A stretch of 64,000 nucleotides of DNA, taken from assembly GCF_009914755.1 (NCBI RefSeq), contig NC_060940.1; one strand, given 5' to 3'. Below the pieces are notes generated by a model, which did not search any database, was not told the origin of the DNA, and saw nothing but the letters and a program-made list of their open reading frames with translations. A program made the position numbers and the translations under genes. Positions 52,208 to 59,675 of this stretch are shown here, piece after piece; the first letter of the stretch is position 1; every line of letters begins with the position of its first letter. Source of the DNA: the human T2T-CHM13v2.0 reference genome, Homo sapiens.

Positions 52208-55200
52208 TCTTACACTGTCACCTCGGGACATCTATAAAGCTTAGATGTTGCAAAACAATGAACTTTGTCCTCAAGAAACACAGCTAATTTACTAAAAATG
52301 CACATGTAGACCTATGATTTTAATTTAAAACCATCTTCTAGATATTTACCGAAGAGCCCTTCCCTCCACCCTTTCTCTTCTCCTTCCACCATTCCAGGGA
52401 CTAAGTACAGGACTATGTCTAGCTCCAAGAGGTCTAGGGACAAAGGTCTCTCCCAGAAGACAGGTGTTTGTAAAAACGAACAAGAGTACATTTATAAAGG
52501 GATTATTTTACTTCCTCTACTTTAACATACTTTGAGCATTATAACTTATTTTATTATTTAATGCACGCAATAATAACTAAAATGTGCATATAGAACAATG
52601 GTTAGGCCATCTGAAGTAGTCTAACTCATGGGCATAGAACCCTTCTCTCTGCAAACTTCCTCCTCCCCATCACCCACCACCACCCAATGAGCAGTCAGCA
52701 TACCCTCCAAGACATCAACTTTAACAATTCTGTCCCCAAAATGCAACCACTCCTATAATGTTTAAAAAAAAAAAAAGAAGGGTATTACTTTAGCCCTTTT
52801 AACATATTTTTGTGCATTTTTAAACATCTAGGAAGATGAGCTGTTTCAAACAGGACTTAAGTTTTTCACTATACACGCAGTACCATTGAGTAAACGGTGC
52901 ACATACATAACAAAGGCTATAATTTCAATATGTTTTCTAACTAGGAACATTCTGGCCTAGAATCCTTCCCCTTCCTACCTCTATCAACCCAGGGGACAAG
53001 TATAAGCATCTGCAATGCTTAGGAGGGATTTTTTAATTTTAATTTTTATTTATTTATTTTTTTAAGACAGAGTCTCGTTCTGTCGCCCAGGTTGGAGTGC
53101 AGTAGTGCAATCTCGGCTCATTGAAACCTCCGCCTCCCAGGTTCAGGCGATTCTCCTGCCTCCGCCTCCTGAGTAGCTGGGATTACAGGCACATGCCACC
53201 ATGCCTGGCTAATTTTTTTTTTTTTGTGTATTTTTAGTAGAGATGGGTTTTCACCATGTTGGTCAGGCTGGTCTCGAACTCCTGACCTCGTGATCCGCTC
53301 ACCTTGGCCTCCCAAAGTGCTGGGATTACAGGCATGAGCCACTCCGCCCAGGCTGGGATTTTTTTTTTTTTTCTTTTTTGAGACAGAGCCTCGCTCTATC
53401 GCCCAGGCTGGAGTGCAATGGTGCAATCTTGGCTCACTGCAAACTTTGCCTTCCAGGTTCAAGCCATTCTCCCGCCTCAGCCTCTGGAGCAGCTGAGATT
53501 ACAGGCACCCACCACTATTCCCAGCTAATTTTTGTATTTTTAGTAGAGATGGGGCTTTGTCATGTTGGCCAGGCTGATCTCAAACTCCTGACCTCAGGTG
53601 ATCCACCTGCCTGGGCCTCGTAAAGTGCTGGGATTACAGGTGTGAGCCACCATGCCTGACCTTACAAGGGATTTTAAAAATTTCACTTCCATAAGTGTTT
53701 TTTAAGAACAGTCTTTCCTATGAATTTTAATGTAAAGTGTACTCAGTGTATTAGTTTACTAAGTTCACTTTTGTCATATGCTGGCAAGCTCTGTAACATC
53801 TTGGAAGACTAGATGTTGTAAAGCAGGACTCATTTGACCCTTATATACACTAGATACACAGCAAAGTAAAATTAAACGCACAGACGTAAGGGACAACGGT
53901 CAAATGTTGTTCACCATAAACACTCTTGTATAAAGCCCTTTGAACTTTCTTCTCCTCCTTCCTCCCTGAACTAGCACAAATATAATAATGTGTACTGCTC
54001 AGAGAAATCAATTTCTAAATTGACCAATTTCTAAAAGACAACATTTCATATGAATTTTAACAAAAGGATATCTATAAAATGTGCTATTTACTACCTCTAC
54101 TTTTAACATACTTGGTCCACTTCTAAATATCTAGAAAGAGTAGATGTTTCAAATAAGGACTTAGGCTGGGTGCAGTGGCTCATGTCTGTAATCCCAGCAC
54201 TTTGGGAGGCCGAGGTGGGCGGATCATGAGGCCAGGAGTTCAAGACCAGCCTGATCAACATAGTGAAACCCCATCTCTACTAAAAATACAAAAATGAGCC
54301 AGTAGTGGTGGCATGCGCCTGTAGTCCCAGCTACTCGGGAGGCTGAGGCAGGAGAATCGCTTGAACCCGGGAGGTGGAGGTTGCAGTGAGCCAAGACTGC
54401 GCCACTGCACTCCAGCCTGGGTGACAGAGTAAGACTCCGTCTCAAAAAATAAATAAATAAATAAAAAATAAAAAATAAAAAAATAAGGACTTAAGTTTTC
54501 CACTATATACACAGTAATATTAAATAAATGGCACATGTAGCAATGGTTATATCTGAAAGTATCTTCTAAATAGGAACATTCTGGTTTCTTTTCTTCTTTT
54601 CTTTTTACTTTTTCACTTCCTTGTCAGTGCCAAGGAACATTCTGGTTTGAATCCTTCATTTCTTCCAACTCCTCTCCACCAACAATCTGGTGGATATAGG
54701 GACATGTGTCACTTAGAAGAGATGTTATCATTTCACTTCCAAAAGTCCTTTTCAGAAGACAGCTTTTCATGAATTTTAACACAAACTGTACAAAATGTGT
54801 TATTTACTAATATTTAGAGACTAGACATTATAAAATTAGGACTCATTTGTCCAGTATATACACAATACATACAGTACAGAAAAGTTAAGTGAAATGCATG
54901 TAACATATAGGGCAATGGATAGACTGAAATTTTCTATTTATTTATTTATTTGAGATGGAGTTTTGCTTGTGTCGCCCAGGCTGGAGTGCAATGGCAGGAT
55001 CTCAGCTCACTGCAATCTCTGCCTCCTGGGTTCAAGTGATTTTCCTGCCTCAGCCTCCCAAGTAGTTGGGATTACAGGTGCCTCCCACCTCACTCGGCTG
55101 ATTTTTGTATTTTTGGTAGAGATGGAGTTTTGCCATGTTGGCCAGGCTGGTGTCGAACTCCTGACCTCAGGTGATCTGCCCGCCTCAGCCTCCCAAAGCG

Positions 55201-58200: not shown

Positions 58201-59675
58201 AAAAAAAAAAAAAAAAGAAAGAAAAAAGTCATTTTCAGGAGACATATCTCTATGATTTTTTAAAAAAACAAATGGATGTTTACAAGATGTGTGATTTTCT
58301 AACTCTGTCATAATTGGCAACCTCTTTACATCTAGAAGGACTAGATGTAGCAAATGTTTTGTTTTGTTTTGTTTTGTTTTTGAGATGGAGTTTCGCTTGT
58401 AGGCCAGGCTGGAGTGCAATGGTGCAATCTCGGCTCACTGCAACCTTCCTGGGTTCAAGCAATTCCCATACCTCAGCCTCTCAAGTAGCTGGGATTACAG
58501 GTGCCCGCCACCACACCCAGCTAATTTTTGTATTGTTAGTAGAGACGGGGTTTCACCATGTTGGCCAGGCTGGTCTCAAACTTTTGACCTCAGGTGATTT
58601 ACCCGCCTCGGCCTCCCAAAGTGCTGGGATTACAGGCGTGAGCCACCGTGCCTGGCTGCAAATGTTTCCTTTTTTCTTTTTCTTTGTGTTTTTGAGACAG
58701 GGTCTCGCTCTGCTGTGTTGCCCAGGCTCTAGTGCAGTGGCACACTCATAGCTCACTGCAGCCTCTGCCTCTCAGGCTCAAGTGTCCTCCCACCTCAGCC
58801 TCCTGAGTAGCTGGTACCACAGGTGTGTATCACCACACTTGGCTAATTTTTAAATTTTTTGCAGAGAAGGGAGTCTCACTATGTTGTCTAGGCTGGTTGT
58901 GAACGTGCCTAGGCTGATCGCTGAAGCGATCTTCCCGCCTTGACCTCCCAAAGTGCTGGGATTATAGGCATGAGCCACCAGCCCAGCCAAATTTTTTCTT
59001 TTAAAAAGTTGGGGGACAAATCGAGATTAGCTTTTTCATATTATATACACAGGCCTTCTGTGTATTATACACACAGCCAGTAAATCTTTCCAAAGGGTGG
59101 TAGGCATTTCCAGTTGGCCAAATGTGGTCTCTTTTTCTACTATTTCTCTCTACCTATATTAAGGTCTGGTAGATTTGTCTGATGGCTGCTGACTCGTCCA
59201 TCTGTTGTTGTCCTGGGCTCCCTCATCTCCTGGCTGGTTCAGGCCTAGGGAGGTCTTGTCCAATTGGGACAGACCGGGCAACCCAGGATCCAGATCTGCA
59301 CGGCCCCGTGGCCTACAGAGGTGACCAAGCCTGTGTCAGTAGACCTGCCTTTTCGCCTGGCCACACCCATGCCACTCAAGGGCACTGTGTCCTAGCAGCT
59401 TGCAGGGGCTTTGCCTGGGCCTGGCAGGACTGGGCCAGGAGACCTCGTGGCTGGTATGGTCCAGGCTGGGAGAGGCTGTTACTGCCATCAAGTCACCCAG
59501 GTGGGGAGGGGAGAGAGGTTCCCTGCTGCCTGGGCCCGGCCGGAGGGCAGCCACGGCGAGAGCTCTGGGCATCTGCAGCGCAGAGGCAGCAGCCTGTCCT
59601 GGGGACCCCCAGTTCATCTGCCAACCTGGAAGAGCTGGCCTCGTTCCGCTTCTCACCTGGCTTTCTGCTGGAACG
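52208..59675 (-). pseudogene. Retrocopy (processed pseudogene) of lncRNA NORAD/LINC00657, interrupted by about ten Alus and a U6 copy; 3' end apparently lost
   Basis: Minus strand from 59675 follows the recalled NORAD 5' sequence (gaactgggggtccccaggacagg; gaacctctctcccctccccacctgggtgact; taggccacggggccgtgcagatc; gaaggcctgtgtatataatatgaaaaagct). It continues as degenerate repeat units with ACATCTAG..CTAGATGT hairpins and TGTANATA motifs. Confidence 0.88.
56760..56865 (-). pseudogene. U6 snRNA retropseudogene, full length (possibly RNU6-1155P; name not verified)
   Basis: Minus strand GTGCTCACTTTGGCAGCATATACGCTAAAGTTGGAATGATACAGAGAAGATTAGCATGGCCCC...GCAAATTCATGAAGCGTCCCCTATTT, followed by an A-rich tail (56733-56759); no PSE/TATA upstream. 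Confidence 0.95.

What the first reader, a model, noticed from the sequence alone, without database searches (positions are those of the whole stretch)
52208..59675. Hidden near-full-length NORAD lncRNA retrocopy 5.4 kb upstream of GOT2, same strand
Seen: removing the Alu and U6 insertions (about 3.2 kb, approximate) leaves about 4.2 kb. This is a GC-rich head (59160-59675) followed by an AT-rich array of diverged repeat units (ttcctatgaattttaa; ttttactacctctac; acatctagaagactagatgt; aggactcatttgtcc; aacattctggcctagaa). Established: NORAD is a single-exon ~5.3-kb lncRNA built of such units, sequesters PUM1/PUM2, and has many related genomic copies. The minus strand here follows the NORAD 5' sequence as I recall it. 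Inference: this is an L1-mediated retrocopy that the ORF track does not show. If transcribed, it could act as a second Pumilio decoy or run into the GOT2 promoter. The CpG decay in its head argues that it is methylated and silent.
Basis: partly seen in the sequence, partly recalled or inferred. Interest (0 to 1): 0.8.

Follow-up and report, generated by a model that had tools for sequence, protein, structure and literature searches.

The report
Old, broken NORAD pseudogene upstream of GOT2
This stretch is an ancient, decayed copy of the NORAD long noncoding RNA that landed upstream of GOT2, was later riddled with Alu insertions and lost its tail; it is one of dozens of such dead copies in the human genome and is ordinary.

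Summary
Window 59678-52216 (minus strand) aligns colinearly with NORAD. I identified NORAD on chromosome 20 by exact matches to the published full-length cloning primers. The alignment runs from NORAD nt ~28, the start shared by six other 5'-complete copies (nt 23-50), to nt ~4585. It is broken only by 10 Alus (3100 bp) and one U6 pseudogene, leaving about 4.26 kb of NORAD-derived DNA.

Corrections:
- The copy is complete at the 5' end but truncated at the 3' end. The last ~775 nt and the poly(A) tail are absent from the whole 64-kb window.
- It is old: 83% identical to NORAD, basal in a tree of 17 sequences, and older than NORAD's own internal Alu.
- It brought no promoter, and only 3 of 65 head CpGs survive.
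- Seven of 14 aligned Pumilio sites remain against 4.0 expected by neutral decay (P = 0.074), much like sister copies.
- At least 62 other NORAD-derived loci exist in this assembly, and "many NORAD pseudogenes" is already in print.

Verdict: a dead processed pseudogene, real but ordinary. Transcription could not be tested here.

The parts
58998..59678 (-). Head of the copy, matching NORAD nt ~28-836. This is the former CpG-island part of the transcript, now CpG-depleted. It holds one retained Pumilio site at 59042-59051.
   Evidence: Local alignment of 59678-59361 to NORAD nt 28-388, score 205 against a shuffle maximum of 44. Chain block NORAD 102-836. CpG observed/expected 0.28 against 0.86 in NORAD; 3 of 65 CpGs kept and 27 changed to TG or CA.
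58358..58997 (-). Two Alu insertions in the same orientation as the copy.
   Evidence: Matches to Alu probes taken from the C20 locus. SRP-like Rfam hits.
57584..58357 (-). NORAD nt 840-1271 in two blocks, split by an antisense Alu at 58226-57887 with the 12-nt target-site duplication AAATGACTTTTT.
   Evidence: Chain blocks. Target-site duplication.
57311..57583 (+). Alu insertion, antisense to the copy.
56866..57310 (-). NORAD nt 1275-1713. Retained Pumilio sites at 57121-57128 and 57110-57117.
   Evidence: Chain blocks at 82-88% identity. Pumilio-site mapping.
56426..56865 (-). U6 snRNA pseudogene (56759-56865), an A-rich spacer and an Alu (56748-56442). Together they are flanked by one 9-nt target-site duplication, AACTATTGT.
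   Evidence: Rfam U6, 91.5 bits, model positions 1-105 of 105. Alu probes. Target-site duplication.
55759..56425 (-). NORAD nt 1700-2359, the longest uninterrupted block, about two repeat units. Retained Pumilio site at 56271-56278.
   Evidence: 83.1% identity over 646 columns. Genome search E = 9.8e-175 to the C20 locus.
54921..55758 (-). An antisense Alu (55703-55404), NORAD nt 2372-2617 with NORAD nt 2431-2552 deleted, and a sense Alu (55234-54927) with the 13-nt target-site duplication TAGAAAATTTCAG.
53661..54920 (-). NORAD nt 2618-3478 in three blocks, with a 62-nt extra stretch at 54573-54634 and an antisense Alu at 54483-54163 (target-site duplication TAAGTCCTTATTT). Retained Pumilio sites at 54855-54864, 54504-54513 and 53842-53849.
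53028..53660 (-). Two Alu insertions in the same orientation as the copy. The pair is flanked by the 9-nt duplication AAAATCCCT.
52216..53027 (-). NORAD nt 3469-4585. NORAD's own 314-nt Alu (nt 3686-3999) is represented here by only 12 nt, so it is absent from the copy. Homology ends at 52216 with no poly(A) tail.
   Evidence: Chain. Junction alignment score 269 against a shuffle maximum of 37. Distance between the Alu flanks about 12 nt.
52056..52215 (-). Not NORAD. This is a member of a dispersed repeat family about 230 nt long. One end of the family coincides with the NORAD break, and this member lacks the family's distal ~40-70 nt. A fragment of about 25 nt that looks like antisense Alu follows (read by eye).
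   Evidence: 1286 first-look candidates, 40 scored at 81-86% identity. Extent of the family from 5 copies. No terminal inverted repeats in 3 of 3 copies. Sequence read.

Best explanation
The region is a dead processed pseudogene of the lncRNA NORAD.

How it most likely arose and decayed:
1. A NORAD transcript that began at the normal start site was reverse-transcribed and inserted on chromosome 16, about 5.4 kb upstream of GOT2. The insertion is old: it predates NORAD's own internal Alu and belongs to the oldest group of copies.
2. The NORAD promoter was not copied.
3. The copy then drifted neutrally to about 83% identity with NORAD and lost almost all CpGs in its former CpG-island head.
4. 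It was hit by 10 Alus and a U6 retro-insertion.
5. It lost its last ~775 nt and poly(A) tail. The likeliest route is an insertion at an A-rich hotspot followed by a deletion.

The seven surviving Pumilio motifs are leftovers. The element most probably does nothing as an RNA.

Shown: identity, colinearity, boundaries, insertions, decay statistics and family context. Inferred: the L1-mediated mechanism, the absolute age, the route of 3' loss and transcriptional silence.
For: Identity of the parent locus:
- The published full-length NORAD cloning primers (PMC4947167, Methods passage) match locus L013 on C20 exactly, 5.69 kb apart.
- An AATAAA lies 20 nt before the inferred 3' end.
- The sequence carries 17 UGURUAUA motifs, the number given in that paper.

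Colinearity:
- 13 blocks cover NORAD nt 102-4571, with 3768 aligned bases and 3132 identical, or 83.1%.
- Sensitive alignments extend this to nt 28 and nt 4585.

RNA origin:
- Homology starts where six other 5'-complete copies start: nt 23, 24, 26, 26, 28 and 50.
- There is no similarity to the NORAD promoter: score 28 against a shuffle mean of 27.7 and maximum of 39.
- In 13 of 13 sister copies that keep a 3' end, homology stops within -4 to +8 nt of one cleavage site. A run of 6-11 A's follows within a few nucleotides in 11 of them.

Later insertions:
- 5 of 8 interruptions have target-site duplications of 9-13 nt made of NORAD sequence.

Age:
- K2P distance is 0.193 overall and 0.175 at non-CpG sites.
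- In a FastTree of 17 sequences, the copy's own branch is 0.139 and it attaches in the basal cluster.
- It lacks NORAD's internal Alu, which 3 of 13 informative copies carry.

Decay:
- 3 of 65 head CpGs are kept.
- NORAD nt 2431-2552 are deleted.
- 7 of 14 aligned Pumilio sites are kept against 4.0 expected, P = 0.074. The other copies show a similar mild excess.

No coding potential:
- The three ORFs submitted (201, 158 and 106 aa), out of 8 of at least 90 aa, have no Pfam match.
Against: - No poly(A) tail and no flanking target-site duplications can be shown for this copy, because the 3' end is gone. The retroposition mechanism therefore rests on the 5' boundary and on the sister copies.
- NORAD has no introns, so intron loss gives no information.
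- Pumilio-site retention is nominally above the null (7 against 4.0), though not significantly.
- The hub's annotation lists RefSeq 'enhancer' features at 58954-59454 and 59455-59955, which overlap the head. Some reporter-type regulatory activity of this DNA is on record, and I could not examine it.
- No expression data were available, so silence is inferred, not shown.
- The support values around the copy's attachment point in the tree are low (0.007 to 0.94).
Confidence: 0.9

Rival explanations
1. The former NORAD head (59160-59678) and its flanks have been co-opted as a cis-regulatory element, an enhancer, for example for GOT2 or the neighbouring lncRNA. This would work independently of any RNA function of the copy.
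For: The hub's annotation table lists RefSeq 'enhancer' features at 58954-59454 and 59455-59955, which cover the head. The head is still GC-rich at 0.62. It lies 12.4 kb from the GOT2 start and about 1.5 kb from a CpG-rich stretch at 61000-61800.
Against: I could not inspect the evidence behind those features. They are two adjoining 500-bp tiles that also cover an Alu and non-NORAD flank, so the activity need not come from NORAD-derived bases. CpG observed/expected of 0.28 suggests long-term germline methylation. The head is the most decayed part of the copy, at 74.5% identity over nt 102-600.
Confidence: 0.12
2. The copy is transcribed on the minus strand, for example by read-through from the CpG-rich region at 61.0-61.8 kb. 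Its seven remaining Pumilio sites would then make it a minor extra Pumilio decoy, or its transcription would interfere with the GOT2 promoter.
For: Seven UGUANAUA motifs lie on the minus strand within 7.46 kb. For scale, 5.69 are expected on both strands of the whole 64-kb window. One NORAD pseudogene, HCG11, is known to be expressed (PMC4947167, passage read).
Against: - No promoter was copied, and RefSeq lists no minus-strand gene here (hub table).
- Pumilio-site survival matches neutral decay and the sister copies.
- 42% of the span is Alu, with 4 Alus antisense, and the NORAD 3' end and poly(A) signal are missing.
- Tichon et al. say the closely related pseudogenes other than HCG11 do not appear to be expressed. 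HCG11 itself is about 20 times lower than NORAD, so any contribution to Pumilio buffering would be negligible.
Confidence: 0.04
3. The region is a DNA-level duplication (segmental or ectopic) of the NORAD gene or of another NORAD copy, not a retrocopy.
For: No poly(A) tail or flanking target-site duplications can be shown for this copy.
Against: Homology begins within a few nucleotides of the start shared by six other 5'-complete copies and does not extend into the promoter. In the tree the copy does not pair with any other copy: the only grouping has support 0.007 and zero length.
Confidence: 0.02

Closest known systems
NORAD (LINC00657), chromosome 20; here locus L013, G000:C20:37765001-37774500, minus strand
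   Same: Same order of sequence from nt ~28 to ~4585. Same repeat-unit architecture: Pumilio motif, short hairpin, U-rich block. 83% identity over 3768 aligned bases.
   Different: No promoter or CpG island. No last ~775 nt or poly(A) signal. 10 Alus and a U6 inserted. NORAD nt 2431-2552 deleted. Only 7 of NORAD's 16 Pumilio sites remain, out of 14 that fall in aligned sequence. It also lacks NORAD's internal Alu.
The NORAD pseudogene family, including the expressed copy HCG11 (Tichon et al. 2016, PMC4947167; Kopp et al. 2019, PMC6407921)
   Same: Same parent and same 5' start. It is one of 64 NORAD-like loci found here, including NORAD itself.
   Different: It is far older than the four copies the paper describes as more than 90% identical over more than 4 kb (83% against 91.6-98.4% for the six youngest panel copies). 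It is 3'-truncated, whereas 13 of 13 sister copies that keep a 3' end stop at the cleavage site. Equating the C6:26.39 Mb copy with HCG11 rests on my recall of its chromosomal position, not on a tool result.
Old NORAD copies of similar age in this assembly (C14:16.00 Mb, C5:33.16 Mb, C4:77.12 Mb, CX:77.69 Mb, C3:136.53 Mb)
   Same: 81-86% identity to NORAD. Basal position in the tree. None of them carries NORAD's internal Alu.
   Different: Those five keep the NORAD 3' end, and this one does not. This one keeps the 5' end, while several of them are 5'-truncated: first aligned nt 241, 2711, 2157, 385 and 60 respectively.

Membership tests
Processed pseudogene (retrocopy) of NORAD | Colinear sequence homology to the mature NORAD transcript | tested here: met
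   13 colinear blocks cover nt 102-4571, extended to nt 28-4585 by local alignment. 83.1% identity over 3768 bases. The parent locus was identified by exact matches to the published cloning primers.
Processed pseudogene (retrocopy) of NORAD | Homology begins at the transcription start and excludes the promoter | tested here: met
   The copy starts at nt ~28. Six other 5'-complete copies start at nt 23-50. Alignment of the upstream flank to the promoter scores 28, against a shuffle mean of 27.7.
Processed pseudogene (retrocopy) of NORAD | The 3' end lies at the poly(A) site and is followed by a poly(A) tail | tested here: inconclusive
   The copy stops at NORAD nt ~4585. The part that would carry the tail is absent from the whole window. 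13 of 13 sister copies with a 3' end stop at the cleavage site, 11 of them followed by a run of 6-11 A's within a few nucleotides.
Processed pseudogene (retrocopy) of NORAD | Flanking target-site duplications | tested here: inconclusive
   The 3' junction is lost. The 5' junction abuts an A-tail of what looks like an Alu fragment (read by eye). I saw no duplication between the two flanks, by eye only.
Processed pseudogene (retrocopy) of NORAD | Loss of introns | not testable with these tools
   NORAD is unspliced (PMC4947167, passage read), so this criterion gives no information.
Functional NORAD-like Pumilio decoy RNA | Its own promoter or CpG island driving abundant transcription | tested here: not met
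   No promoter homology. Head CpG observed/expected is 0.28. No minus-strand gene in the hub's RefSeq table. Expression itself was not testable.
Functional NORAD-like Pumilio decoy RNA | Pumilio sites kept by selection, above neutral decay | tested here: not met
   7 of 14 aligned sites are kept against 4.0 expected (P = 0.074). Of the 19 sister copies, 2 have P below 0.05 (C9_38.68 at 0.014 and C14_16.00 at 0.049) and most show a similar mild excess.
Functional NORAD-like Pumilio decoy RNA | An intact transcript with a poly(A) signal | tested here: not met
   The 3' 775 nt, including the AATAAA, are missing. Ten Alus and a U6 interrupt the body.

The most novel reading that the evidence does not exclude
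The decayed 5' head of this NORAD retrocopy, once part of a CpG island, has been co-opted as an enhancer-like element near GOT2, as the RefSeq 'enhancer' features at 58954-59955 hint. A weaker version: the locus is part of an unannotated minus-strand transcript that still carries seven Pumilio sites. Either case would be an example of a lncRNA retrocopy supplying regulatory raw material.
Probability: 0.1. Interest if true: 0.4.

Novelty: new member of a known kind. Interest (0 to 1): 0.15.

Why it matters
It matters little on its own. The practical value is in annotation and read mapping. RefSeq shows no gene here, and NORAD-like sequence can capture multi-mapping RNA-seq or CLIP reads, a problem the NORAD papers already work around (PMC6407921, Methods passage).

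As a dated 'fossil', this copy and its sister copies record how NORAD looked before it acquired its internal Alu. The comb-shaped tree suggests NORAD has changed at roughly half the rate of its dead copies: about 0.07 substitutions per site along the NORAD lineage, my own sum of branch lengths from the tree, against 0.139 on this copy's branch.

If the head really acts as an enhancer, it would be a modest example of co-option of a lncRNA retrocopy.

Tried and rejected
- Rfam scan. It returned only U6, Alu-derived SRP-like hits and spurious miRNA hits on an (AT)n microsatellite. No NORAD hit was listed, which may only mean the library has no such family.
- Tandem Repeats Finder. The NORAD repeat units are too diverged and interrupted to be called.
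- First chain attempt. It paired NORAD's own Alu with window Alus. I redid it after masking.
- Search for the missing 3' part. A local alignment of window 52230-48500 to NORAD's last ~950 nt scored 40, against a shuffle maximum of 49, and hit a TG/TA microsatellite. BLAST of all 64 kb found one off-diagonal repeat-unit hit only.
- Panel script. It aligned only 3401 bases for this copy because the U6 was not masked. I replaced that row with the projection.
- Terminal inverted repeats in the repeat family at the 3' break: none in 3 of 3 copies. I do not name its class. My recollection that it resembles a MER-type DNA transposon is untested.
- Internal priming on the A-rich NORAD nt ~4595 as the cause of 3' truncation. 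This is not excluded. I rank it below insertion followed by deletion, because the break coincides with the end of a dispersed repeat that is itself truncated.
- ORFs. There are 8 of at least 90 aa. The three I scanned have no Pfam match.
- Literature. Searches for NORAD + retrocopies (1 paper, irrelevant on reading the passages), NORAD + 'processed pseudogene' (26 papers, 10 seen as listings only), NORAD + GOT2 + Pumilio (3 reviews, listings only) and LINC00657 + HCG11 + pseudogenes (6 papers, 5 listed) gave nothing on this locus.
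Full report

**Finding the parent.** No NORAD sequence was supplied, so I looked for it in the window's own assembly. An Alu-free 681-nt stretch of the array (window 55740-56420, minus strand) matched many loci at 79-83% identity, including one on C20 with E = 9.8e-175. 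I fetched that locus as L013.

Three results identify L013 as NORAD:
- The primers that Tichon et al. 2016 used to clone the full NORAD transcript from genomic DNA (PMC4947167, Methods passage) both match L013 exactly, once each, 5.69 kb apart and in the right orientation.
- An AATAAA lies about 5.34 kb downstream of the forward primer. Sister copies lose their homology a few nucleotides after it. This gives a transcript of about 5.36 kb in my numbering, where nt 1 is the first base of the forward primer. The paper states 5.3 kb.
- The interval carries 17 UGURUAUA motifs, the number the paper reports, and 15 UGUANAUA motifs.

**Colinearity.** BLAST of the reverse-complemented region against the C20 locus gave a colinear series of matches. 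A first chaining attempt was misled by Alu-to-Alu matches. I then masked Alu-homologous stretches, the U6 and NORAD's own Alu.

The masked chain has 13 blocks covering NORAD nt 102-4571. It has 3768 aligned bases, of which 3132 are identical, or 83.1%. Every break falls at an Alu or at the U6. There are 10 Alus in 9 intervals, totalling 3100 bp.

Five of the 8 interruptions are flanked by 9-13 nt duplications of NORAD-derived sequence. Those insertions therefore came after the copy arrived.

The length accounting is a 7463 bp span, minus 3100 bp Alu, minus 107 bp U6, leaving 4256 bp.

**The 5' end.** A local alignment places window 59678-59361 on NORAD nt 28-388, with score 205 against a mean of 29.7 and maximum of 44 over 100 shuffles.

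Six other 5'-complete copies begin at nt 23, 24, 26, 26, 28 and 50 of the same numbering. This copy therefore starts at the shared transcription start.

The sequence upstream of the head shows no similarity to NORAD's promoter: score 28, shuffle mean 27.7, maximum 39. A copy that begins at the start site and lacks the promoter is RNA-derived.

**The 3' end.** Homology ends at window 52216, which is NORAD nt ~4585. The junction alignment scores 269 against a shuffle maximum of 37. The remaining ~775 nt, the poly(A) signal and any poly(A) tail are not found in the next 3.7 kb or anywhere else in the 64-kb window.

What follows, at 52215-52056, belongs to a dispersed repeat family. The search gave 1286 first-look candidates, and the 40 that were scored are 81-86% identical. 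Comparison of 5 members shows three things:
- The family is about 230 nt long.
- One of its ends coincides with the NORAD break to within about 6 nt.
- The member here lacks the family's distal ~40-70 nt.

A fragment of about 25 nt that looks like antisense Alu follows (read by eye). I found no terminal inverted repeats in 3 of 3 members, so I leave the family's class open.

The same A-rich spot in NORAD (nt ~4595-4611) carries independent Alu insertions with 17-nt target-site duplications in two other copies. It is an insertion hotspot.

My inference is that an element inserted there and a later deletion removed its far end together with the rest of the copy. Internal priming on the A-rich stretch is a less likely alternative. 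Either way, 'near-full-length' is only partly right. The copy is complete at the 5' end, truncated at the 3' end, and covers about 85% of the transcript.

**Family context.** The three genome searches list 212 rows that merge into 64 distinct loci, including NORAD and this copy. This is a lower bound, because only 40 candidates were scored in each search.

In 13 of 13 fetched copies that keep a 3' end, homology stops within -4 to +8 nt of one site. In 11 of them a run of 6-11 A's follows within a few nucleotides. The other two (C14_16.00 and C6_86.41) are only A-rich there. This supports retroposition of polyadenylated RNA as the family's mechanism.

Two papers already state the general fact:
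[quoted passage not shown] My searches found nothing on this particular locus. I could not consult GENCODE or pseudogene catalogues.

**Age.** Identity to NORAD across the 20 panel copies ranges from 81.0% to 98.4%. This copy, at 83%, sits in the oldest group.

I built a FastTree on 3620 non-CpG columns anchored to NORAD positions. It used 17 of the 21 rows. Four copies with fewer than 1400 covered columns were dropped: C2_46.43, C19_12.68, C2_108.87 and C6_86.41.

The tree is comb-shaped, with NORAD and the youngest copies at one end. This copy lies in the poorly resolved basal cluster, where supports range from 0.007 to 0.94. Its own branch is 0.139 substitutions per site.

NORAD's internal Alu (nt 3686-3999) is present in 3 of 13 informative copies, all young. 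It is absent from the other 10, including this one.

If I apply recalled neutral rates of about 1-2.2 x 10^-9 per site per year, the branch length suggests very roughly 60-140 million years. That figure is an inference, not a measurement.

**Decay and the decoy idea.**
- In the head, 65 NORAD CpGs fall in aligned columns. Three are kept, 27 are now TG or CA, 20 changed otherwise and 15 fall in gaps.
- CpG observed/expected is 0.28 in the head, against 0.86 in the matching part of NORAD.
- NORAD nt 2431-2552 are deleted.
- NORAD's 22 Pumilio-motif windows group into 16 sites, of which 14 fall in aligned sequence and 7 survive.
- For a null, I took the fraction of all 8-mers in the aligned body whose seven fixed positions are unchanged, which is 0.286. 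That gives 4.0 expected sites, and P(7 or more) = 0.074.
- Most of the other 19 copies show a similar mild excess, and two reach P below 0.05 (C9_38.68 at 0.014 and C14_16.00 at 0.049). An excess is expected because the null also counts changes on the NORAD lineage and some sites hold two overlapping motifs. This copy is therefore not an outlier, and nothing points to selection for Pumilio binding.

Seven motifs in 7.5 kb is still far above chance: 5.69 are expected on both strands of the whole window. That is inheritance, not function.

**Other strand and coding potential.** Eight ORFs of at least 90 aa overlap the region. The longest, 201 aa, lies antisense in the GC-rich head. The three I scanned have no Pfam match.

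**What remains open.**
- Transcription could not be tested.
- The hub's table lists RefSeq 'enhancer' features at 58954-59454 and 59455-59955, which overlap the head and its flanks. I could not see the evidence behind them.
- A CpG-rich stretch at 61000-61800 (GC 0.66-0.73, CpG observed/expected 0.55-0.65) lies about 1.5 kb upstream in the minus-strand sense, next to the annotated plus-strand lncRNA start at 62092. It is the only visible candidate source of read-through transcription.

These points leave about a 10% chance that the locus has some regulatory or RNA role.

**Verdict.** This is an old, broken member of the already described family of NORAD processed pseudogenes.

Noticed in passing
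NORAD nt ~4595-4611; L023:4899-5188 (C6:26.39 Mb copy), L040:1359-1668 (C16:92.18 Mb copy), window ~52216: This A-rich site in NORAD-derived sequence was hit repeatedly. Two other copies carry independent Alu insertions there, each with a 17-nt target-site duplication. The chr16:64.53 copy breaks off at the same place.
   Followed up: partly
NORAD nt 3686-3999 (L013, minus strand) and 13 sister loci: NORAD's internal Alu is present in only 3 of 13 informative retrocopies (C12:29.26, CX:79.43 and C6:26.39 Mb) and absent from the 10 older ones. It is a handy relative time marker for the family.
   Followed up: yes
window 56426-56865 (-): A full-length U6 pseudogene (Rfam 91.5 bits), a 26-nt A-rich spacer and an Alu are flanked together by a single 9-nt duplication, AACTATTGT. 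Either the Alu landed in the U6 copy's A-tail, or the pair is a chimeric retro-insertion.
   Followed up: partly
window 59686-59770 (-): A short fragment that looks like an Alu monomer, with an A-rich tail, abuts the 5' end of the NORAD copy. It was read by eye only. It was too short to be flagged by the Alu probes.
   Followed up: no
window 60030-60189: An (AT)n microsatellite of about 80 copies produces a cluster of sub-threshold miRNA-family hits in Rfam (mir-297, mir-466, mir-1277 and others). It also produces several UGUAUAUA pattern hits that are not Pumilio sites of any transcript.
   Followed up: no
window 61000-61800: A CpG-rich stretch (GC 0.66-0.73, CpG observed/expected 0.55-0.65) lies just before the annotated plus-strand lncRNA LOC107984867 start at 62092. 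If that promoter fires in both directions, its minus-strand transcripts would run into the NORAD copy.
   Followed up: no
window 50520-50650: A TG/TA-rich simple repeat accounts for five UGUAUAUA pattern hits between the NORAD copy and GOT2. It is unrelated to NORAD.
   Followed up: no
L013 (C20), first ~25 nt after the published forward cloning primer start: Five 5'-complete retrocopies begin at nt 23-28 of the primer-based numbering and a sixth at nt 50. This suggests the germline NORAD start site lies about 25 nt downstream of the 5' end of the published cloning primer.
   Followed up: no
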